This document shows positions 16,679-63,880 of a DNA stretch of 64,000 bases, piece after piece (within the stretch, counting starts at the first letter, position 1; every line of letters starts with the position of its first letter). The notes beneath the pieces are model-generated. The model made no database searches, had not been told where the DNA came from, and worked only from the letters and a program-made list of their open reading frames with translations. The DNA is from Mytilus trossulus (lineage: Eukaryota): NCBI RefSeq assembly GCF_036588685.1, contig NC_086373.1:4340001-4404000 (forward strand), written 5' to 3'. Both the position numbers and the translations under genes were made by a program.

Positions 16679-18100
16679 CAGAAATAAGAACAATTTAATC
16701 ATGGATGTCAAAAGCCATCACAGAACTTGCGACTCAGAGCTTTTTATGTTCCAGTAAAAATCAACTTAGATCCAAAGACAGTCGTTAGATTGATACAAAT
16801 TCCAGAAGAATATGCAGAGATGATAAAATCAAAGAAATCATATCAATGTTATAAAAAATATGATGTTCAAATCTTTCTAAAATTGAATTGGACTATAAAT
16901 ATTTGGAATAGAAAAGACAATTTATTACTTTTCATCCCAAATAAATTGCCATTATATACCAGTACATTAATATTTTATTTCTTCTCCAAACACCATGAAG
17001 CAAATAAAATTTGAGATTGTGTAATAAAATAAAATGACCATAAGGTTTTTAATTTTTTATTTATTTAAGGTGGATCATCAGTTTATTATATCACCTCAGA
17101 TTATGCTTTGACAAAAGAAATATTTTAACATGGTTTTTTTCAAAAATACAATAAAAAGTATGTGTCAATGTGCTATTTTCAAGCTACAAATCATGCAAAA
17201 TTGCCAAAATCTGCATAGGTATTTCATGAAAAAACACATTCATGTGAATAAAAAGAAATCTACAAGGTAGAAATGAGAAGAAAGAAAAAGAAAAAAATAC
17301 CTCTGAACTTGTTTTTTTTTACTGCAAATAATAAATTAAAATTTCCTTATCATACCGGTTTTAAAAAATATACATTAAAGTTGTCTCCCCTTAGATGGAT
17401 AGGGTTAAAAATTGAATATGAAAAAAATATATCTGGTATTTGTTTAAACATTTTAGATACTGTTAGAAATCACTTTTTTTCCCAAAAAAAGTCTTGACAC
17501 TTACTGGTAGATTGTAGATGTGTCATAATTTGCAGTCTGAGGCAATACAAGACCAATTGTGTATTGCTATTGTACAATCAAAGATGGTGGTATACAGTGA
17601 ATTTGGGTTTTAATACTCTTATTGTTCATGTCTAAATATTTGTTTTTTGTTCACTGTTTCTATTCAGGTAAATAGATAAATGGCAATTTAAACCTTTACA
17701 TTTGTATTTGTTGAAGTCCATATCATATCCACTTGAGTTCTAAGATGTCCCCTGATGTGATTCGTGATAACAAATTTTCAAGGTGTCCATTCATTCATGT
17801 TTCTGTCAGATGTCTGCCTGTCTAGGTTAACTATTGTGCTGCTTGCCATATATTTTTTATTGAAAATTAGTGCTAATCAATTTTTTTTGAGAGAGTTATG
17901 CACCTTAGAAATTTCAAATTTATTTTTTTTAAAAATGCATTCTAATAAGCCCTCTCAAGCCTACATTTTTCATAAGAATATTATGAAATCTATACTGTAA
18001 TGAATATTATTCAGTTACCTTAATTATGTTATTAGGAAGTTCTAAGTTTATCTGTTAGGAAGTAGGCAAATGTTTAAATCCTTTCACTTTCGTTTCTTAA

Positions 18101-18900
18101 AGTCATAAGAAACCTCAAATCAAAAAAAAATAATGCATATGTTTTTTATAACTCAATCGATAGTTTTCATTGTAAAACTTATGTACATATACTTTTTTCT
18201 GAAGAAAATTCTTTAATTTATTCATATTTAGAAGAAGTTTACTTTATTTGAATTGCTTCCTTCCAGCAAGCAATTCCCGGGATATATTTTCCGTATGCAA
18301 GGTGACCTCAGTGTGACCCATCTCGTAAAAATCCGGTGACCACAATACGCATGGATGTCCTTAAAATAAACTATTATCTGAATTTACATGTTAAACACGT
18401 GCTCAATTTCCATGCTTTTTTGTTTATTTTTCGTCAATTGTTGACAAACAGGTGACAATCGTAATTGAGGAAACGATGATAGTCCGTTGGACGGGGACGA
18501 TAAATGGCTGGCCCGTGTTAAGAGAGAGCCACATCTCTTGCACGTTAAAGACACCCTTGTAGATTTCGAAAAAGAGTAGGCTAATGCCGCTACAAGGCAG
18601 CACTCGCACCCGCAAAGTGGAAAGGGATTAATATAAGTTGCAAAACTTGTTTCCCAATGCACTATAAATAAATATGTTTAAATTAATCGTTAAACTTTGG
18701 CTTTAAAACACGAACTTTAATTACCTGCCATATTTTCACAACAACACTGACCGATTGAAAAAAAAATTGACGATTATACGAACTTTACACGAAAAAAATG
18801 ATCAATTCGAGCACAGAAGACTAAGTTTATGATGTTTGTATGCATTGGTTTAAAAATTGGAAGAACATTATTGTTCACCGGTCACTCGTTTCTTATGACT
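18101..18900. mobile_element. TTAA-specific MITE (Kolobok-like) inserted in the 5' LTR
   Basis: Perfect 13-bp TIR AGTCATAAGAAAC / GTTTCTTATGACT, TTAA TSD on both sides, absent from the 3' LTR. RR termini fit Kolobok rather than piggyBac (YY). Confidence 0.85.
18465..18682 (+). mobile_element. 5'-truncated Deu/Nin-domain SINE nested in the MITE
   Basis: Highly similar to 63102-63320; contains ggggacgataaa...tgcacgttaaagacaccc, the Nin/Deu core signature. Confidence 0.75.
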
Positions 18901-19696
18901 TTAATGAAGTACCTTGATATCGGTTGTAATACAGAAAATGATTTCCGAAGTTTTGGTACTGGTTCCAATCCTATCTATTTGAAAAGTAAGTGCTTGATAT
19001 TAAATTACTTTAGGTGTTATATTAAAACGTAACAGTGATACGGAATATATTTATTTCTGTTAAGAGATTATATGCATTTTGGTTAGAGATAATTCTAGAA
19101 TATTAGTAGAGTTTCTCACAATGTTAATCAGTTCGGTCCTCAGAGCTCCTAGAGTAAAGACTAAAGAAAAGGTAATTATAACTATTTCTGAAAAAGAAGT
19201 AGCTTTCCAAGGACCTTTGGTTAAACTTTTATAAGCAAGAGCCAATTGTTCTATCTGAATAAGGTGGTGACATATTGTCCTGTGGTATATAATTAAGGTG
19301 ACAAAGTGGTACTGTCCCTTTGGACCAGTGACACCTTGGCCCTGAATAAGGACCAGAGGCGCACTGGAAACCATAATTCCATATTACCTTTGAATCAAAG
19401 AGCTTAAGTACTGTAAGGCAAATAGGTTTATAGTCATATATCATATACTATTGAAGTAAGGTTAAGTCATAGTTAGGTTAAGGGTTTCATTTTGTATAAT
19501 TACCGGAAGTAATATTTTGTTAAATGTTATTAGGCTTTTATATCTAAGGTTGAATTAGTTCTTGAAACACGTTACCATTTGTAAGGGTTAGCGAACGATA
19601 CACAACAAATCCAGGGAAGTAAACCTGGTACGGATCTACGGGTACATAAAGTACTATCTGGCGTGTAGGACCCCCTCTGCACGTTACGAAATTTGA

Positions 19697-19712
19697 TGGC
19701 AGCGGTGGGATT
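19697..19712 (+). promoter_or_regulatory. Primer-binding site complementary to the tRNA-Leu 3' end
   Basis: tggcagcggtgggatt is the reverse complement of aatcccaccgctgcca; it lies 8 nt after the 5' LTR. Confidence 0.85.
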
Positions 19713-19899
19713 TGTTCGCTGTATAGTTGGTTAGTTGGATATATCAGTCAGTATAGTCGGACATCCATTTGTTTTATAAATATGGATAAAATTGAAAATT
19801 TATCTGCCCAATTGTAACCTCATGATATTCAAATTGTTAAGAAAAACCCCGTCAACTTGTCCAATAAGAAATCACCAGGGAAAGCCACAGGGACAAGCA

Positions 19900-22800
19900 T
19901 GAGTAGCGTAGAGATATTAAGGTTGAAACGTACGATAAGTCAGGTGATTGGAATGACTACCGGCCACATTTTGAGTCTTGTTCCTCTATTAACGGTTGGG
20001 ATAAGCTCGAGAAAGGGTTGTACTTAGCGGCTTCCCTTGGAGATCAAGCTCAAGGTGTTCTTGGGGATTTATCAGATGACAAGAAAAGTCATTTTGAACA
20101 GTTGGTGCGATCACTAGAAGAGAGGTTTGCTCCCCCAAATTAGTCAGAGTTGTACCAGAAACAATTGAAAGAAAGGAAGCAGAGGGCTTCAGAGACGCTT
20201 CCTGAGGTAGGACAAACGATGCGCCGGCTGGTGAATAAAGCGTACCCCACTGCTCCAGGAGAAGTCAAAGAAACATTGGCTAAAGAATACTTTTTGGATG
20301 CATTGATTAATACGGAAATGCGTATAAAAATCTAACAATCCCGTCCCCCTGACCTTAATTTTGCTATATGTTTAGCTGTAGAGTTAGAAACATTTTACAA
20401 GGCAGAAAAGCAATTTGAAGTAGGGAAAGCCCATTTATGAGCTGTAGACAATGATGAACAGGTGGTTAGAGTCTGAGTATTATGATAGGTTGTCGGATAA
20501 AATAGAGGGCCTGTTAGCAGCATTTAATGATCAATTGGCAAATATGCGTAAAGAGTTAGATGAATTTAAGAATAAATCCAACATGTCTGGACCAGTTGAT
20601 AGGTCAAATTTCTTTGCTATAATTGTGGTAAAACCGGCCACATGGCTAGAAATTGTAATGCTCCTAGAAATAGGAGCCAGAACAACCAAGGATCACCAGG
20701 ACCTTCGGTTAGGCGTACGAACAACCGTAGTAGTACACGGAAACGTAAATCTTTGTACCTCTGCTCTAATACTCTTAATAATGAGGCAGGGCTCTATGTA
20801 GAGTTATTTATAAATGGAATTCATGCCAAGTTTCTTATTGATACAGGGGCTACAGTTAGTTTGGTGTCGGATACTCTATTTGAGAAATTAAAATCCAGTG
20901 ATAGGCCAGGGGTAAGGCAGGTCACCCAGGAAATAATAGCAGCTAATGGTGAGTCTTTAAAAACAGTAAGGCACTGTTTTTTTAAGCGTGGTAGTTTTCA
21001 CACTGTCATTGAAGGTGTAATAGCAGGTTTGTCAGTGGAAGGTATTCTTGGGCTATATTTTCTGCAGACAAACGGTCGAAAGTTGATTTAGGCAATAAAG
21101 TACTAGTAATGGAAAGGGATAATCAACACATACCTTTGTTACTGCAGGGAAAGTTAGGCGTTTTTCGGGTGGCAGTCAAAGATAAAGTTAGCATAGCCCC
21201 AAGGTCAGAGGTAGTAATCCAGGGTGAAGTACTGAACTATGATTCAGCTGTTCAGGTGACTGGCATTATTGAACCCAGTGAAGAATTCCTTGATAGAGGA
21301 TAGGCTCTTGTAGGGAAGTCTGTTCTTATGTCTGATAAATCAGTTCCTGTTAGGCTATTAAATCTAAGTGACAGTGTCCAAGTATTAAATGTCGGTACTG
21401 TGGTCGGAAATCTTAGTGGAGCGGAAGTGGTTAGTCAGGTGGACAATCACAAGGATTATGCCCTTACTAATGAAATGGAAAAATTATTAGATAGGTCTAG
21501 TGAGAATCTTGGACATGGACAAAAAGACAAGGTCACAGAGTTGTTATTGGAATTCAAGCATCTTTTTGCCGCTTCACATTCGGATCTGGGACAAACAAAT
21601 ATTGTGAAACACAGGATTGGCACTGATGCTGCAAGGCCAATAAAGCAGCCACCACGGCGCACCCCAATAGGTCTTAGGGAAGAGGTAGATCAACATATTA
21701 ACGATATGTTGGAGAGAAACATTATTGAGCCCTCGGAAGGACCATGGTCCTCCGGAATATTGAGAAAGAAAGATGGGACCACTATGTTTTGCGTAGACTA
21801 TAGACAGTTAAACACATGTACTATCAAAGACGCGTATCCTTTGCCCCGAATTGATTATTCGCTTGAGCAGTTGTCAGGAAACGAGTGGTTTTCAACTTTG
21901 GATTTATGTTCTGGATATTGGCAGGTAGAAGTAGAGCCATCAGATCGTCATAAAACAACCTTTGCCTCCCGGAAGGGTCTTTATCAGTTTCGCTGTATGC
22001 CATTTGGTCTGGTAAACGCCCCTGCCACCTTTGAGCTTCTTATGGAGAATGTTATGGCAGGGCTCCTAAGGGACATTTGTCTCATATTTCTAGATGATAT
22101 CATAGTTATGGCTAAGAATTTTGATGAAATGATACATAATTTACGCCAGGTTTTTGTAAAGTAAGAAGGGGCAGGGCTTAAACTCAAACCCAAAAAAAGT
22201 GTCATTTGTTTGCTTAAAAGGTAACTTTTCTCGAACATGTTGTTTCTGAATCGGGTGTTGCTACCGACCCCGATAAAACTAAGTGTATAAGGGAATGGCC
22301 TGTTCCCCAGAACGTGACAGAGCTCAGACCCTTCTTGGGTTTGTGTGGTTATTATAGCCGGTACATAATACATTTTTCAGATACGGCTAAGAACTTACAC
22401 CAAATGACCGAAAATGGTCGCGAATTTCTGTGGAACAATGATAGTCAGGAGGCCTTTGAAAAGCTGAAAGGCAAATTAATCAGTGCCACAGTCCTCAGTC
22501 ATCCCAACTTCTCCCAAACATTTATTTTTGATGCGGATGCAAGTAACAGAGCGATAGGTGGTGTTTTATCACAGGTTATTGATGGCGAGGAACATGTTAT
22601 TGCATATGAGAGTAGGACCCTTTCAAAAACAGAGCGCCGTTATTGTATTACAAGGCAGGAACTGCTAGCCGTGGTCCATTTTGTTAAACATTTTCGGAAA
22701 TGGAAACACGGGAATATCTATTGGGAGATATATACTCCGTTAGCAGGTGCTGCTGGAATGTTGCTACTTCACAATTGAAAAGCTGAAATCATCTCTTTTG

Positions 22801-23588
22801 TCGTAAAGTTTTGTTTTCGATCGACCCTCATTGTCAATTTCTAGATGTAAGTCAATATATGAAGCCGACTTGACTGTATCTGTAGTATTCTTTATCTTTT
22901 ACTAAGTGGACAGAGAGTCATCCCATGCCCAACATTGAGGTAACTACAGTTGCAAATATTCTTATGACTGAGGTTATTTCTAGGTTTGGGGTACCAACTA
23001 TTATCCATTCCGATCAAGGTAGTCAATTCGAGAGCCACCTGTTTAAGGAGATGTGCAAGTTGCTTCAGATAGAAAAGACCCGGACGACTCCTCATCAACG
23101 AAATCTGACGGGATGGTTGAACGATTAAATAAAACTCTTGCTACCATGCTCACGGGGTATGTAAATGAATATCACTCCAATTGGGACGTATTACTACCTT
23201 ATGTCATGATCGCTTATCGGTCCTCTCAACATGAGACCACTGGTTACACCCCCAATAGATTAATGTTGGGAAGAGAACTGTCTACCCCCATGATCCATAT
23301 AAGGTGATTAAGATAAACTCAAGTGTCACATACACCGTCAATTGTGGGCGTAAGGGAGCGGGTCAAGTAATACATGTTGATAGGATGCGACCTTGTCCCC
23401 AACAAATACTAAGGGGAGAACTTGTTGACGAACAAAGTCCTGAGAAAACAGGAGAGCTAGAAACAGAGATTCATGACAAAGAAGTTATCATTGACTCTTT
23501 GCCCTTATTAGATCTAGATGATCATGAGGATGTAAACAATGATAGACCAAGGAGGTTTATAAAACCTCCATCGTGGATGAAGGACTAG
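19900..23588 (+). pseudogene. Disrupted gag-pol (gag with CCHC knuckle, aspartic protease, RT, RNase H, partial integrase)
   Basis: CYNCGKTGHMARNC (about 20615), FLIDTGATVS, FCVDYRQLN...DAYPLPRID...LDLCSGYWQ...MPFGLVNAPATF...FLDD, DADASNRAIGG, IHSDQGSQFES...GMVERLNKTL. There are multiple stops and frameshifts, and the RH/INT junction is deleted. Confidence 0.93.
22695..22865 (-). mobile_element. Penelope-like RT fragment inserted antisense in Gypsy pol
   Basis: The - strand reads SYIDLHLEIDNEGRSKTKLYDKRDDFSF; it overlaps in sequence with 43660-43729 (gcaggtgctgctggaatg). Confidence 0.7.
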
Positions 23589-23690
23589 ACTACGAACGGT
23601 AAATTATGTGTTTTGAGATGTAAATAGATAATGTAAATATGTATTTTTGATATTAAATATGTTTTATTATTTTAGATCTAAATTTGAAAT

Positions 23691-25157
23691 ATGATAAACA
23701 CAAAGACAACGCATAAGCTTACTAAATATTACTAGTATTTTATATACATATACATTTTCATGTATCTACAATCTGTCGATACCTGTAACATGTTTTTCTC
23801 TGGCTGTTTATGACGTCTTTACACTAAATCCATTGTATGTTGGATGTGTACGGATTGATTGTGTAGTCTTAGAGGCATGATTTTTTTATTAGTTGTAAGT
23901 GGCTTTGAACTAGCTGTCAGATAACTGCGAGTACTCTCAGATTTGTTCATTGTGTCTTTTTGTGTCGGGATGTATAAGTACCCGGCCACGTCCACTTGTA
24001 CTTTTTGTCTATCTGATGAGTTAAGCCTTTTTCAACTGATTTTTACAGTTCGTTCTTATGTTGTACTGTTATACCACTGTCCCAGGTTAGGGGAGGGTTG
24101 GGATCCCGCTAACATGTTTAACCCCATCACATTATTTATGTATGTGTCTGTCCCAAGTCAGGAGTCTGTAATCCATTGGTTGTCGTTTGTTTATGTGTTA
24201 CATATTTGTTTTTCGTTCATTTTTTTAAATAACTAAGCTCGTTAGTTTTCTCGTTTTAAATGTTTTCCATTGTCTTATCGGGGCCTTTTATAGCTGACTA
24301 TGCGTAATGGGCTTTGCTCATTGTTGAAGGCCGTACGGTGACCTATAGTTGTTAATGTTTGTGTCATTTTGGTCTTTTTATGGGTAGTTGTCTCATCGGC
24401 AATCATACTACATCTTCTTTTTTTTATATAAACACAAAGACAACGCCAGGAAAATCCTCACAGGAAATTTACAGATGTCCTGTCTGTGGTGAAAGGTTCC
24501 TCACCGCAAAAGAGTGGAGTGATCATATAATTACATGTTGTGAGAAAAAGCGGGTATCAACATCTTTCATCTGCAAAGAACCGGCGTGCACCTATGCAGC
24601 CCTCTTGGAAAGAGATCTTATGAGTCACAGCAAGAGAAAACACCAGAAATCTGCAGTAGCTGAAAGTGATACTGATTCCGAAGAAATTCCATTTAGCCAG
24701 AGACCGACTGGGTCATTTTGCGTTGATATAACGTCGGTCACTCCAGAGGTCGCAACAAGTCCGGAGATGGCACCAGTGAGGAAGGCAACTAAACCTCTGC
24801 CAGTGTTTGGCTCGACCAAGAAGAGACAGCTGATGGAACACCTGGCTGATAGTGTGGTTCCGGTTAACGTTCCAAGGACTTCTGCAACCGCAGTCAGAAG
24901 TAATTTGTTAGTGGCTTCTTCAATAACCTCACCGGTATTATTCACAAATCCAGTGGCACAAACACGTGTAACTTCGTCGCTTGGAGGTGGCGTGTTTCTT
25001 CAGCCGACATGTGGTCAGGTTGTTCCTGCCAAGAGGATGATTGAAACCCAAACCCCCTAGGATGATCGCTCATCACCATCTTAAAGGGACCGTTAGAACC
25101 TGGTATGAGGAAGGAATAAAGGTGGAGGAGACCACTGAAGAAACTTGGGACGATTGA
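23691..25157 (+). pseudogene. Gypsy accessory ORF3: two-zinc-finger protein, interrupted by a 715-bp insertion and one frameshift
   Basis: ATG at 23691 (MINTKTTP) rejoins 24447 after removing the insert and one TSD copy. YRCPVCGERF...HIITC and FICKEPACTY...HSKRKH fingers. A +1 shift near 25057 extends it to RTWYEEGIKVEETTEETWDD*. It lies between integrase and the 3' LTR. Confidence 0.75.
23713..24427 (+). mobile_element. Unclassified abundant retroposon-like repeat with a 19-bp TSD
   Basis: ataaacacaaagacaacgc duplicated at 23694-23712 and 24428-24446. Its 3' part (ggcaatcatac.acatcttctttttt) recurs at about 6590-6720, 16030-16205 and 38490-38600. Confidence 0.8.
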
Positions 25158-25734
25158 GTAATCATTATACAATGTGTGAGCATATATTCTACATGGAAGC
25201 CAATGAGGCTGGATATCGTTACCTCGTTCCAGAGCATGTGGACGAATAGAGGCAACAGTGGTATACCGCTGTTCAAAACTCACAAATCCATGGACAAAAA
25301 ACAAAATCGGGGTAACAAACTAAAACCGAAGGAAGCGCATTAAATATAAGAGGAGAACAACGACACAACACCGAAACGGACCAGGCATCAGACAAAACAC
25401 CACGAGAATAACAAATATAACATGAAAACCATATACATGAATTTGGGATAGACAAGTACCGTGCCACGTCTTATCTAAAAAATAAGAGAAAACACAAACG
25501 ACTCAAAGTTAAAATGCAACACACACAGAAACGAACAATAATATAACAATGGCCATCTTCCTGACTTGGTACAGGACACTTTTAAAGGGGAATAAAAGTC
25601 AGTTATAAGTTTAGAACGTTTGCAGTCTTAGTTATCAGACTGTGAGAGGACACATTATTTGATTTTGAGTGTACTATATGGTAAAAGATACCCGATATTA
25701 TTATTGTGTTTTTGTTTTCATTTTATAGTATGAC

Positions 25735-25860
25735 CGTCTGGTCGGAGTGGGGACGTTAAATCCGATGCCCCGTGTTCAGGAAATGACACGTCATGTGCAC
25801 GTTAAATATCCCTTTGTAGAGTTCGTTTAGAGTAGGCTCCTAGGGGCCGCTACATAAGCT
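25735..25860 (+). ncRNA. Deu/Nin-domain-like structured RNA module in the Gypsy 3' non-coding region
   Basis: gtcggagtggggacgttaaat...cccgtgtt...tgcacgttaaatatccctttgtaga...agagtaggct...gccgctaca is collinear with the SINE core at 18481-18600 and 63119-63240, with compensatory stem changes. Confidence 0.6.
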
Positions 25861-26252
25861 AACTTTTGCAACCTGGATTATTTCGGAAGATAAAGTTTCC
25901 AGTGACATTTTAAATTGATACATGCTTTTGGTATTTAAATTTCATATAGTAAGGGTATTGCGTTCAGTAGTTTTGTTTGGAATCCATTACCCCTTGGTAG
26001 TAGTATTGGTAGGTGCTGGTTGAAATCTGAGCATATGGTAGATGTATTGCGTACGAGCTGATAAGGGGAACATTATTTTGTTCTATTTATTTTGTCTAGT
26101 ACCATGGAGAGTACTTTGCATTTTGAGAACATGCTCAGTAGTTACTTTCGAATAGATAGTTGATAGAGTTTGGGTCTGAAAAAGGGCCAGAGGTCGATGA
26201 TTTAGCTCGAGTATTGTAAATGCGGGGCGCATTTCTGTTGAAGCGTGGGTAA

Positions 26253-27256
26253 TGTGACGAATATCATTCAGTTACCTTAATTATGTTATTAGGAAGTTCT
26301 AAGTTTATCTGTTAAGAAGTCGGCAAATGTTTCAATCCTTTCACTTTCGTTTGTAATTTACCTCTTATTTCACATGTCAATGTGACTGAGTGTTTTTAAA
26401 ATAAAGCATATTGTATTGTATTGTATTGTATTGTTTCTTAATGCAGTACGTTGATAACGGTTGTAATACGGAAAACGATTTCCGAATTTTTTGTACTGGT
26501 TCCAATCCCATCTAGTTGAAAAGAAAGGAATACATTTATTTCTGCTTAGGGATTATATGCATTTTGGTTCGAGATTATTCTAGTATATAAGTAGAGTTTC
26601 TCACAACGTTTATCAGACCGACCGTGCAAGCGCTGTATAGCCAGTCAAGGTTGTTAAAAACTTGTTGTCTTAATCAGTTCGGTCGTCAGAGTTCCTAGAG
26701 TAAAGACTAAAGAAAAGGTAATTATAACTATTTCTGAATAAGAAGTAGCTTACCAAGGACCTTTGGTTTAACTTTTATAAGCAAGAGCCAATTGTTCTAT
26801 CTGAATAAGGTGGTGACATATTGTCCTGTGGTATATAATTAAGGTGACAACGTAATACTGTCCCTTTGGACCAGTGACACCTTGGTCCTGAATAAGGACC
26901 AGGGGCGCACTGGAAACCATAACTCTATATTACCTTTGAATCAAAGAACTAAAGTACTGTAAGGCAAATAGGTTTATAGTCATATATCATATACTTTTGA
27001 TTTAAGGTTAAGTCATAGCTCCAATAAAGCGTCCCTTGTGTTATGTTAAGGGTTTCATTTTGTATACTTACCAAAAGTAATATTTTGTTAATTGCTATTA
27101 GGCTTTTATACCTAAGGTTGAATTAGTTCAGGAAATACGTTACTATTTGTAAGGGTTAGCGAACGGTACACAACAAATCCAGGGAAGTAACCCTGGTACA
27201 GATCTACGGGTACTTAAAGTACTATCTGGCGTGTAGGACACCCCCTGCAAGTTACA
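26253..27256 (+). repeat. 3' LTR
   Basis: tgtgacgaatatcattcagttacc...gcaagttaca; preceded by gaagcgtgggtaa (PPT-like); carries small insertions not present in the 5' LTR. Confidence 0.92.
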
Positions 27257-52587: not shown

Positions 52588-52900
52588 TAAGATATCTTAT
52601 TTAATTTGAAAGTAAATACGATATCTCTAATAATAGTTTATAAGATATCTCTATTAGTTTATAAGATATCTCTATAAGTTAATAAGATATCTTTATTAAT
52701 TAATAAGATATCTTATACAGTATATAAGATATCTTACTTTCTTTTAAATACATACTTTATAAGATATCTGATTAATTAATAGAGATATCTTATAAACTAA
52801 TAGAGATATCTTATTAACTTATGGAGATATCTTATATATTAAATAAGATATCTTTATAACCAATTATATAAGATATCTCTATAAGTTAATAAGATTATAA

Positions 52901-53222
52901 GATATGTTCCTTACGTCGTAACTACAATCCCCTTCCCTTTCATGAATTTGACCTACCGAATTATACTATTTACCGGATTTGTAATCACATAAGCAACACG
53001 ACGGGTGCCGCATGTGGAGCAGGATCTGCTTACCCTTCCGGAGCACCTGAGATCACCCCTAGTTTTTGTTGGGGTTTGTGTTGTTTATTCTTTAGTTTTC
53101 TATGTTGTATCATGTGTACTATTGTTTTTCTGTTTGTCTTTTTCATTTTTAGCCATGGCGTTGTCAGTTTGTTTTAGATTTATGAGTTTGACTGTCCCTT
53201 TGGTATCTTTCGTCCCTCTTTT
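52901..53222 (+). mobile_element. Penelope-like 3' UTR fragment
   Basis: Reverse complement of 43181-43505 with few differences. Confidence 0.75.
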
Positions 53223-54648
53223 ATATCTCTATTAGGTTATAAGATATCTCTATAAGTTAATAAGATATCTCTTTAAGTTAATAAGATATCTCTATAAGTT
53301 AATAACATATCTCTAAAAGTTAATAAGATATCTCTATTAGTTTATAAAATATATCTATTAGTTTATAAGATATCTCTATAAGTTAATAAGATATCTCTAA
53401 AAGTTTATAAGATATCTCTATTAGGTTATAAGATATCTCTATAAGTTAATAAGATATCTCTAAAAGAAAAAAAGATATCTCTATTAGTTTATAAGATATC
53501 TCTATTAGTTTATAAGATATCTCTATAAGTTATTAAGATATCTCTATTAATTAATAAGATATTGTATAAAGTATATAAGATATCTTACATCTTTATAAAG
53601 ATATCTTTTAAATACATATGTTATAAGATATCTTATTAATTAATAGAGATATTTTATAAACTAATAGAGATATCTTATTAACTTATGGAGATATCTTATA
53701 TGTTAAATAAGATATCTTTATAACCAATTAGATAAGATATCTATATAAGTTAATAAGATATCTCTAAAAGTTTATAAGATATCTCTATTAGGTTATAAGA
53801 TATATCTATAAGTTAATAAGATATCTCTTTAAGTTAATAAGATATCTCTAAAAGTTTATAAGATATCTCTATTAGTTTATAAGATATCTCTATAAGTTAA
53901 TAAGATATCTCTTTTAATTAATAAGATATCTTATAAAGTATATAAGATATCTGACTTCTTTATAAAGATATCTTATTAATTAATAGAGATATCTTATAGA
54001 CTAATAGAGATATCTTATTAATTAATAGATATATCTTATAAACTAATAGAGATATCTTATTAACCTATGGAGATATCTTATTAAGTAAATAAGATATCTC
54101 TATTATTAACTATATAAAAGATATCTTATATAGTTAATAAGATATCTTATAAATGGATAGAGATATATTATATTTTAAATAAGATATCTTATATATTTAA
54201 TAAGATATATTTATAAACATTTTAATAAGATATCTTATTTAATAAATCAGATATCTCAATTAATATATAAGATATCTCAATTAGTTTATAAGATATCTTA
54301 TTTAACTAAATAAGATATCTCGAAATTGAATAAATATAATAACAGCGTGCCATAACCCTAACACTTTCTTATTCAATTTTAAATGTTTTCACTGATATGA
54401 TAATTTTTATGTTTTTGAATGGCATATTAATAGTAAAAAAAAAGAAAGTAGCAAAATAAGTACAAAGAAAACATCAGAAATAAATAGAAATAGAAAATAA
54501 TGCCCCTGTGGTCATATTTTATATAGGACTAGAGACTAGAAAGGTGAAAAAAATGTATTCAACACAATTTGTCATAGCATGCAATTTTTAAAAGGTATAC
54601 ACAAACATAAAGTATTTGTCTACATTTTTTGTTCTTTTTAATTTTTAG

Positions 54649-58309: not shown

Positions 58310-58730
58310 TTGATTGATTGTTGGTTGCTGAACGTCCAGTGGCAAATATTTCATGCATATTCAGGACGAGAACAAGTTAATAAAATACAATTTGTAGGTT
58401 GTGTCATAATAGATGTCATTTGTGATGATGGTCTGGGAAAATTGGACTGCCACTGGAAAATGAGGGTACATGTATATTGGATAGGGACAAAAATTTTGCC
58501 TTACAACAGGCCACCTACAGGCCCCCAAAGAGTTGTTGCAATGGTTCTTAACGTACAAAGGGCGTTGCACTCTCTTTACACGAGACAACGTCCCCAATCT
58601 GAACGGACATGGCTGTGAACTTAATTCATCCCGCACAGCCAAATGGACACCCACTTCGGCAAGCGTTTTACTGCCAGTCAGAAGAAGACCAAGTGACCAT
58701 ATTTTATTCTCTAGTCACCCTTGGGGGACA
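58310..58730 (-). mobile_element. Second Deu/Nin-domain SINE family with a (CAAT)n tail
   Basis: - strand tccgttcagattggggacgtt...cgtgt...tgtacgttaagaacc core, ending in caaccaacaatcaatcaa. Confidence 0.65.
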
Positions 58731-63000: not shown

Positions 63001-63880
63001 GGACTACTAACACAAAGGTTCCTGGTTCGATTCCAGTTAGGGATGAAACTTTCAGGAACTCAATTTTCGGCTCTCCCTCGACACCATTTGCGAGTATTGT
63101 CTTGAGGAAACAATGATAGTCCGTCGGAAGGGGAAGATAAATGGCTGACCCGTGTTAAGAGAGAGCCATATCTCTTGCACGTTAAATACACCCTTGTAGA
63201 TTTTGAAAAAGAGTAGGCTAATGCCGCTACAAGGCAGCACTCGGACCGGCAAAGTGGAAAGGGATTAATATAAGTTGAAAAACTTGTTTCCCAATCCACT
63301 ATAAATATATATGTTTAAACTATTGACAGGGTTTCTAACTTACACCTAGATAAATAATGTAAAAGCTTCTCTGATTTACACATAGATAAAAACTGAAAAG
63401 GCTTCTAACTTACACCTGAAATAATGCTTCTGACATACACCTAGATAAACACTGACAAGCCTTCTCTGACTTACACCTGAAATAATTCTTCTGATATACA
63501 CCTAGATAAACACTGACAGGCCTTCTCTAACTTACACCTGGAATAATGCTTCTGTCATACACCCAGATAAACACTGACAAGCCTTCTCTGACTTACACAT
63601 AGATAAACACTGGAAAGGCTTCTAACCTAAACCTAAAATAAGGCTTCTGATTTACACCTAGATAAAGACTGACAATGCTTCTGACTAAGGCCTGAATAAA
63701 CACTGACAAAACTATTGACTTACACCTAGATAACCACTGACAAGGTTTCTGACTTATACCTATATAACACTGACTGGGCTTTCGACTTACACCTAGATAA
63801 ACACTGACAAGGCTTCTGACTTATACCTAGATAAACACTGACAGGGCTTCCGACTAACACCTAGATAAACACTGACAAGG
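60026..63880 (+). repeat. 34-bp intronic minisatellite (homogeneous to about 62950, degenerate beyond), interrupted by a SINE
   Basis: Unit gataaactctgac(aggg/aaag)attctgactaaca(ccta/ttca/ccca); period 34 (60026, 60060...). Confidence 0.95.
63005..63320 (+). mobile_element. tRNA-derived Deu/Nin-domain SINE (A box truncated)
   Basis: Pol III B box ggttcgattcc at 63024-63034, Nin/Deu core, AT-rich tail; same family as 18465-18682. Confidence 0.8.

What the first reader, a model, noticed from the sequence alone, without database searches (positions are those of the whole stretch)
25735..25860. A SINE 'Deu/Nin' core inside an LTR retrotransposon, with co-varying stems across three repeat families in this window
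Seen: the Gypsy 3' non-coding region holds a ~125-nt block collinear with the central domain of the SINEs at 18481-18600 and 63119-63240 (+) and 58498-58610 (-), but with no tRNA head or SINE tail. Sequence differs while pairing is kept. P1: gtcc/ggac vs cgtct/ggacg. Outer stem: cgtgt/gcacg, enclosing aagaga/tctctt (SINE1), atgac/gtcat (Gypsy) or aaagag/cccttt (SINE2). Next stem: ccttgtag/ctacaagg vs tgtag/ctaca vs ttgcaaca/tgttgtaa, each enclosing a ggc...gcc hairpin. The single-stranded gttaaa linkers are conserved. Known: the Deu/Nin domain is shared by SINEs of many metazoans and its function is unresolved. Inference: it is a portable, selected RNA structure (stability, export, packaging or catalysis) also used by autonomous LTR elements. 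It follows a second strong acceptor (ttttgttttcattttatag, 25728), so it could be spliced into the 3' UTR of the ORF3 mRNA.
Basis: partly seen in the sequence, partly recalled or inferred. Interest (0 to 1): 0.8.

Follow-up and report, generated by a model that had tools for sequence, protein, structure and literature searches.

The report
SINE core retained in Gypsy retrotransposons
A 130-base RNA module known from short animal retroposons (SINEs), whose job is unknown, also sits near the 3' end of a group of LTR retrotransposons in this genome, where it keeps its folded shape and changes more slowly than its surroundings, which suggests it does real work for mobile RNAs.

Summary
The block is real and is the Nin (short Deu) SINE domain, without head or tail. 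It is not a private insertion. 8 of 10 sister loci carry it whole. It also sits 0.2-0.6 kb before the 3' LTR in five other families of the same Gypsy clade, and in tiny non-coding derivatives. It is absent from 54 of 54 sampled out-of-clade Gypsy loci. Between families it is 82-98% identical while integrase third positions are 37-47% identical and most flanks do not align. In two families it varies about three times less than the rest of the 3' UTR. Two long helices covary, and G-U but not A-C changes are tolerated, which points to sense-strand RNA. Corrections: the splice acceptor and the 'atgac/gtcat' stem are private mutations of this dead copy, and P1 does not covary in this genome. The module is not obligatory: one in-clade family and two outside relatives lack it. 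Best reading: captured from SINEs at least twice, swapped between families, and kept as a cis-acting RNA element, most likely for export or cytoplasmic delivery. Function is untested and only one genome shows it.

The parts
25735..25866 (+). Nin/Deu module in the 3' UTR of the Gypsy element (whole)
   Evidence: ends match the published Lottia Nin domain by eye
25735..25755 (+). P1 hairpin, 25735-39 with 25751-55
   Evidence: predicted by RNAalifold; 92.7% paired, no change on both sides in this genome; changed on both sides in published Nin and BivaMD SINEs, read by eye
25741..25766 (+). Candidate H-type pseudoknot helix, 25741-46 (P1 loop) with 25761-66, bridged by the A-rich TTAAA linker
   Evidence: complementary in all LTR families; SINE2 has an A-C mismatch in 89 of the first 100 of 800 matches; no compensation seen; hypothesis only
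25771..25801 (+). P2, an 11-bp hairpin (one pair broken in this copy at 25793)
   Evidence: 5 of 11 pairs change on both sides, 93% paired
25811..25858 (+). Three-way junction: basal helix P4 (25811-19 with 25850-58), hairpins P4a (25821-33) and P4b (25835-48)
   Evidence: P4: 5 of 9 pairs change on both sides, 91% paired; predicted by single-sequence folds of L033, L101 and L047; not recovered by RNAalifold on the MAFFT alignment
25867..25916 (+). About 45-nt extension shared with the SINE2 body
   Evidence: nhmmer of the SINE2 profile reaches position 294 of 429 in family A
25710..25728 (+).
   Evidence: 0 of 8 sisters have AG
17996..19688 (+). 5' LTR, interrupted at about 18101-18900 by later insertions; target-site duplication ATAC at 17992-95
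19694..19711 (+). Primer-binding site
   Evidence: same motif after the 5' LTR in sisters and other families
19907..23588 (+). gag-pol in broken pieces: zf-CCHC, protease, RT, RNase H, integrase, p58 C-terminal domain
24356..25060 (+). ORF3, a C2H2 zinc-finger protein with no envelope family match
26219..26252 (+). Clade-wide hairpin (26219-33) followed by the polypurine tract
26253..27256 (+). 3' LTR, about 90% identical to the 5' LTR over its longest aligned part; ATAC duplication at 27257-60
18465..18685 (+). SINE1 copy a, 5'-truncated; full-length copies have a tRNA-type head
63102..63322 (+). SINE1 copy b (part that aligns with copy a)
58310..58720 (-). SINE2 copy: Nin body, no tRNA B box, resembles the published LINE-promoter SINEs with a partial Nin domain

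Best explanation
The Nin/Deu domain is a folded sense-strand RNA element: P1 (possibly a pseudoknot), a long hairpin and a three-way junction. A sub-lineage of one Gypsy clade picked it up from SINE RNAs, at least twice or once plus a later half-swap, probably by template switching during reverse transcription. It has since moved between families as a cassette and been kept by selection. Most likely it binds a host factor that helps an RNA lacking normal mRNA processing (a SINE transcript or an unspliced LTR genome) reach and persist in the cytoplasm where it is packaged or copied. It would then work like a CTE/MTE-type transport element. Shown: homology, position, restriction to one clade, constraint, covariation, mosaic ancestry. 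Inferred: direction SINE to LTR, template switching, host-factor binding. Export is the leading guess (about 0.3 absolute), ahead of packaging or ribosome docking (about 0.15) and stability (about 0.1).
For: Sisters: 8 of 10 carry it whole. Context: 27 of 34 fetched 10-kb loci have an LTR pair around it, 2 are tandem arrays, 4 are fragments of the same families and 1 is a decayed SINE2. Between families it is the only alignable island in +-900 nt apart from a short patch near the PPT, with 82-98% identity against 37-47% at integrase third positions. Diversity, module against rest of UTR: family B 0.028 vs 0.092 (Fisher p 6.5e-8), family E 0.024 vs 0.062 (p 0.001). Pairing: 92.1% of cells paired, 10 of 32 pairs changed on both sides, covariation score 0.272 against 0.05-0.13 for slid controls; one-sided changes are almost all G-U. 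Non-coding derivatives keep it: L102 has a 680-nt interior, and 3' homology to the parent resumes 8-25 nt before the TCGGA motif in most B- and E-derived elements. Family C holds a B-type module (96%) between an unrelated gag and an E-like 3' end. LTR modules are not one clade against SINE modules (AU p 0.002 for the 3' half, 0.047 for the 5' half), and both 3' types occur in published gastropod SINEs (by eye). Transport elements of musD and SERV-K/MER11 are precedents.
Against: Not obligatory: in-clade family G (4 loci, long open frames) and the two outside relatives with complete 3' UTRs (L186, L192) lack it, and sister L018 has it deleted. No excess conservation in families A (0.052 vs 0.047) or C (p 0.43). 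Folding z-scores are weak, -2.1 to +0.5 in six other copies. The alignment was fitted to the model, the changes reduce to a handful of independent events in about seven lineages, and the 'pairs with a change on both sides' measure was not significant (62 of 500 shuffles). High identity between B, C and F partly reflects recent exchange rather than selection. No functional data.
Confidence: 0.55

Rival explanations
1. Template-switch hotspot. The structure stalls reverse transcriptase and its conserved blocks give homology, so it spreads and is homogenised as a cassette without benefit to expression.
For: Junctions of chimeras and deletions cluster at its edges. The 5' and 3' halves have discordant trees. 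A clade of families A+B+F, which share the 3' type, is rejected on the integrase tree (p 0.008). Module exchange is among the roles proposed for conserved SINE domains (passage).
Against: Lower diversity inside families B and E and compensated helices need selection on the fold. Deletions stop before the module rather than inside it.
Confidence: 0.2
2. DNA-level element (enhancer, insulator or factor-binding site) kept by selection, with the stems inherited from the SINE.
For: Some SINEs with conserved domains have been exapted as enhancers (passage). Several blocks are invariant in sequence.
Against: Changes on both sides and the G-U over A-C bias point to single-stranded sense RNA. The module lies outside the LTR promoter.
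Confidence: 0.1
3. Passive hitchhiker: one old SINE insertion in an ancestor, without function (as for the V domain in MER6).
For: Family G and outside relatives do without it. No constraint is seen in family A.
Against: Head and tail are gone and flanks do not align, while the module keeps 82-86% identity across saturated third positions. Two different SINE-type 3' halves are present.
Confidence: 0.08
4. Reverse direction: SINE1 and SINE2 took their Nin cores from this LTR clade, which would make LTR 3' UTRs a source of SINE bodies.
For: In both half-trees each SINE sits among LTR families.
Against: Nin is widespread in animal SINEs, and both 3' types occur in gastropod SINEs. The clade's outside relatives lack it. 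The trees have no true root.
Confidence: 0.08
5. Self-cleaving ribozyme, or an exon spliced into the ORF3 mRNA.
For: Compact multi-helix fold with A-rich linkers; a pyrimidine tract lies upstream.
Against: No Rfam family matches the module; the only overlap is a chance-level hit (E 4.7). The acceptor AG is in 0 of 8 sisters. Internal cleavage would break the template (inference).
Confidence: 0.04

Closest known systems
Nin domain of Nin-DC / DeuSINEs (Lottia Nin, Lsa_Nin, Nla_Nin, BivaMD-SINE1; PMC4758252 and PMC4824008, supplements and passages read)
   Same: Same approximate length (120 nt), same start and end motifs, same order of conserved blocks (by eye).
   Different: Here it sits in an LTR retrotransposon 3' UTR with no Pol III head or LINE tail. 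The passages read give no structure or pseudoknot for it.
V domain inside the MER6 MITE (PMC6887750, passages read)
   Same: A conserved SINE domain carried by another kind of mobile element.
   Different: MER6 holds a nearly full SINE, is a DNA element and is inactive, and that paper saw no sign of selection. Here only the core is kept, in young RNA-intermediate elements, with constraint and repeated exchange.
musD MTE and the SERV-K/MER11 CTE (PMC5767303 passages; PMC11379458 abstract)
   Same: Structured cis-acting RNA of an LTR element. The MTE has a pseudoknot; the SERV-K element lies before the 3' LTR and was gained by recombination.
   Different: No sequence relation was tested or is expected. 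Export activity is not shown here. The donor here is a SINE.
LP-SINEs with a partial Nin-DC domain (PMC4758252, section 10 read)
   Same: SINE2 has a non-tRNA head and a Nin body.
   Different: Head homology was not aligned, so the assignment is a resemblance.

Membership tests
Nin/Deu domain | About 120-nt sequence collinear with the published Nin domain from end to end | tested here: met
   By eye against the supplements; E 1e-12 to SINE1. No computed alignment to the published sequences.
SINE (Nin-DC/DeuSINE) as an element | Pol III tRNA-derived head with A and B boxes | tested here: not met
   No B box within 260 nt upstream in A, B, C, D, E; found in the SINE1 control; one 1-mismatch hit lies in the LTR of small E derivatives. 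No head match.
SINE (Nin-DC/DeuSINE) as an element | LINE-type 3' tail ending in a short repeat | tested here: not met
   Profile matches stop at 265 of 355 (SINE1) and 296 of 429 (SINE2).
SINE (Nin-DC/DeuSINE) as an element | Own target-site duplication | not tested
   Flanks are too diverged; not searched formally.
Ty3/Gypsy LTR retrotransposon (host element) | PR-RT-RH-IN order; TG...CA LTRs, PBS, PPT, short target duplication | tested here: met
Named mollusc Gypsy clade (C-clade, MolGy) | RT/RNase H placement against reference elements | not testable with these tools
   No reference sequences held; PMC6238403 passages read.
CTE/MTE-type RNA transport element | Position in the unspliced RNA near the 3' LTR | tested here: met
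   About 220-240 nt before the LTR in family C, about 510-680 nt in the others.
CTE/MTE-type RNA transport element | Tertiary contacts (pseudoknot or kissing loop) | tested here: inconclusive
   Candidate helix is complementary but not compensated; a competing GGGG/YCCC helix is 98% paired with one-sided changes only.
CTE/MTE-type RNA transport element | Export activity in a reporter | not testable with these tools
   Needs an experiment.
Known ribozymes and other Rfam families | Match to a curated covariance model | tested here: not met

The most novel reading that the evidence does not exclude
The Nin/Deu domain is a general retroelement RNA device: a pseudoknot-hairpin-junction fold that recruits a conserved host factor for export or cytoplasmic delivery. 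SINE and Gypsy RNAs trade it back and forth when they meet during reverse transcription, and this explains why SINE cores have been conserved across animal phyla.
Probability: 0.3. Interest if true: 0.85.

Novelty: new variant of a known kind. Interest (0 to 1): 0.62.

Why it matters
The function of the conserved SINE central domains is a long-standing open question (stated in PMC4824008 and PMC11481361). Finding the Nin core under constraint in elements that use neither Pol III nor a LINE partner argues against explanations tied only to SINE transcription or tail recognition, and points to a general RNA-level role. It also gives a concrete structure model, natural variants with and without the module (family G), and two interchangeable 3' halves for direct tests.

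Tried and rejected
Pattern scans of viral contigs and metagenome contigs found 0 matches. Integrase relatives in viral contigs: none. Rfam: nothing on the module. A genome-wide scan with the RNA model was not available, so copy counts are lower bounds from DNA and pattern searches. Expression: no RNA holder listed; contigs of four guessed-RNA runs cover parts of ORF3 and the UTR without strand, and the one nearby joint has no splice-type ends on the element's strand, so this is no evidence either way. ARAGORN found no tRNA in SINE loci. An ORF3/module pair like Rev/RRE was rejected: L176 and L186 have ORF3 without the module, and L031, L008 and L009 have the module without ORF3. A third high-copy SINE as donor of the 82% hits was rejected: all 11 fetched of the 21 module-only rows lie in LTR elements. 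TCAGA/TCTGA as pseudoknot compensation in SINE2 was rejected: 9 of 100, best explained by CpG decay. A recalled likeness of P4b to telomerase P6.1 was dropped because it does not hold in SINE1, D or E. Earlier findings of the scan: nothing.

Full report
Observation. The block at 25735-25866 aligns with the two SINE1 copies at about 70% identity (E 1e-12 and 8e-12) and more weakly with SINE2 (nhmmer E 0.002). It lies in a dead Gypsy copy at 17996-27256, with an ATAC target duplication, LTRs about 90% alike, gag-pol in pieces in PR-RT-RH-IN order, and a C2H2 zinc-finger ORF3. The host is probably a bivalve (inference from the SINE resemblances). The module starts and ends with the same motifs as the published Lottia Nin domain and follows its blocks in order; this was read by eye from two supplements, not computed. 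It is therefore the Nin (short Deu) domain. Profiles of SINE1 and SINE2 copies match no head or tail, but about 45 nt past the Nin end are shared with the SINE2 body.

The acceptor AG is found in 0 of 8 sisters. 'atgac/gtcat' would close a 2-nt loop and is due to private substitutions; intact sisters have CAGGA/TCCTG. P1 never changes on both sides in 30 copies. SINE1 has a tRNA-type head. SINE2 has no B box and resembles LINE-promoter SINEs.

Distribution. The UTR search scored 40 of 286 candidates. Of 10 sister loci that reach the UTR, 8 carry the module whole, L010 carries it split and L018 has it deleted. A pattern for the 5' part gave 78 exact matches in the genome and 0 for the control. 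Of 34 loci fetched at 10 kb (chosen), 27 have an LTR pair around the module, 2 are tandem arrays, 4 are fragments of the same families and 1 is a decayed SINE2. Carriers are full families A, B, D, E and F, gag-protease-only elements including family C, and small non-coding elements; L102 has only 680 nt between its LTRs. As a denominator I chose 60 of 150 listed integrase hits (638 candidates) and scanned 3.5 kb downstream of each. The model hit 2 of 60, both family F. On the integrase tree (59 of the 60 placed, L172 too short) all carriers fall in one clade (SH-aLRT 100), and 0 of 54 other loci carry the module. Inside the clade, family G (4 loci; 3' UTR about 110-130 nt in the three printed; long open frames) lacks it. 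So do L186 and L192, the two metagenome relatives with complete UTRs; three others are cut short. Monophyly of the carriers is not rejected (p 0.15).

Constraint. Between A and B or C the module is the only alignable stretch in +-900 nt apart from a patch near the PPT, at 82-86% identity. Integrase third positions are 37-47% identical between families. Within families, module against rest of UTR: B 0.028 vs 0.092 (11 copies, p 6.5e-8), E 0.024 vs 0.062 (8 copies, p 0.001), C 0.023 vs 0.043 (5 copies, p 0.43), A 0.052 vs 0.047 (7 copies, p 1). A first run with unfiltered copies gave larger flank values and was replaced by this one. In small B- and E-derived elements, 3' homology to the parent resumes 8-25 nt before the TCGGA motif (68 nt in one comparison). 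Local alignment ends need not be the true breakpoints, but in L102 the break lies between -24 and -10.

Structure. On 30 model-aligned copies, 92.1% of cells pair, 83 cells change on both sides (shuffled mean 35; 0 of 500 shuffles as high), and the covariation score is 0.272 against 0.05-0.13 for slid controls. The count of pairs changed on both sides (10 of 32) is not significant (62 of 500). The signal lies in P2 (5 of 11 pairs) and P4 (5 of 9). One-sided changes are nearly all G-U, and one U-G pair is invariant, which fits sense-strand RNA. Caveats: the alignment is fitted to the model, the sequences are related, and there are only about seven lineages. RNAalifold on the unfitted alignment recovers P1 and P2 but not P4. 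Folding z-scores are weak: +1.3 for the window copy, -2.1 to +0.5 for six others. By eye, published Nin and BivaMD SINEs change P1 on both sides and add further P4 variants. The P1 loop can pair with the bases after the TTAAA linker, in the loop geometry typical of H-type pseudoknots (from established knowledge). It is intact in the LTR families, but SINE2 has an A-C mismatch in 89 of the first 100 of 800 matches, and a competing GGGG/YCCC helix is also kept. The pseudoknot stays a hypothesis.

History. The 3' half comes in two types: A, B, C, F with SINE1, and D, E with SINE2 (80-84% to SINE2). LTR modules are rejected as one clade (AU p 0.002 for the 3' half, 0.047 for the 5' half; about 60 columns, no true root). 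A and D are sisters by integrase yet differ in type, and A+B+F is rejected (p 0.008). Family C carries a B-type module between an unrelated gag and an E-like 3' end. Both types occur in gastropod SINEs. The simplest history is capture from SINEs followed by cassette exchange; template switching is inferred.

Mechanism. I favour a cis-acting RNA element that recruits a host factor (0.55), with export or cytoplasmic delivery as the leading role, by analogy with musD MTE and the recombination-acquired CTE of SERV-K/MER11. It is an advantage rather than a requirement, given family G. Rivals: template-switch hotspot (0.2), DNA-level element (0.1), hitchhiker (0.08), LTR-to-SINE origin (0.08), ribozyme or exon (0.04).

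Literature. Nine answered searches and passages of PMC4824008, PMC4758252, PMC5786205, PMC6887750, PMC10294476, PMC11481361, PMC11121367 and PMC6238403 showed no report of Nin/Deu in LTR elements and no structure model for it. Seen: PMC4824008 parts 1-2 of 6, passages and supplement parts 1-2 of 4; PMC4758252 abstract, sections 10 and 12 and supplement passages; PMC11379458 abstract only; PMC5767303 and the others as passages. Not seen: figures, Piskurek and Jackson 2011, Nishihara 2006, Repbase reports and most subscription journals, where such a note could exist. The closest precedent is the V domain in MER6.

Verdict.

Noticed in passing
window 26219-26233; also L033, L032, L100, L102, L156, L164, L176, L186: All clade families, with or without the module, share a 6-7-bp hairpin just upstream of the polypurine tract, with an A-T/C-G swap at its base.
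   Followed up: partly
window 24356-25060; L100:6188-7009, L033:6171-7049, L186:3419-4258: The clade's third ORF encodes a C2H2 zinc-finger protein rather than an envelope; its role is unknown and it is often deleted.
   Followed up: partly
L032:4800-7058, L103:4583-7102, L038, L040, L104: Young elements (LTRs over 99% alike in L032, L040, L103, L104; L038 is a tandem array) with one 700-870-aa gag-protease frame and no RT; in L103 the frame runs on into a zinc finger.
   Followed up: partly
L102, L110, L036, L039, L041, L114-L116: Non-coding LTR elements of 2.9-3.4 kb with near-identical LTRs; some form tandem arrays (L107).
   Followed up: partly
L036 and L102, 200-350 nt downstream of the module: B and E UTRs share a second short motif followed by hairpin-rich sequence, and diversity dips there in B.
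   Followed up: no
window 23713-24430, 25247-25595, about 18101-18900: Later insertions into this copy that the sisters lack.
   Followed up: no
window 59889-about 63000 and 52600-54300: A 34-nt tandem array of about 87 registers next to SINE1b, and a 21-nt-period array in both orientations.
   Followed up: no
G000:C4:62641952-62670617: SINE2 core repeated about every 2 kb in a tandem array.
   Followed up: no
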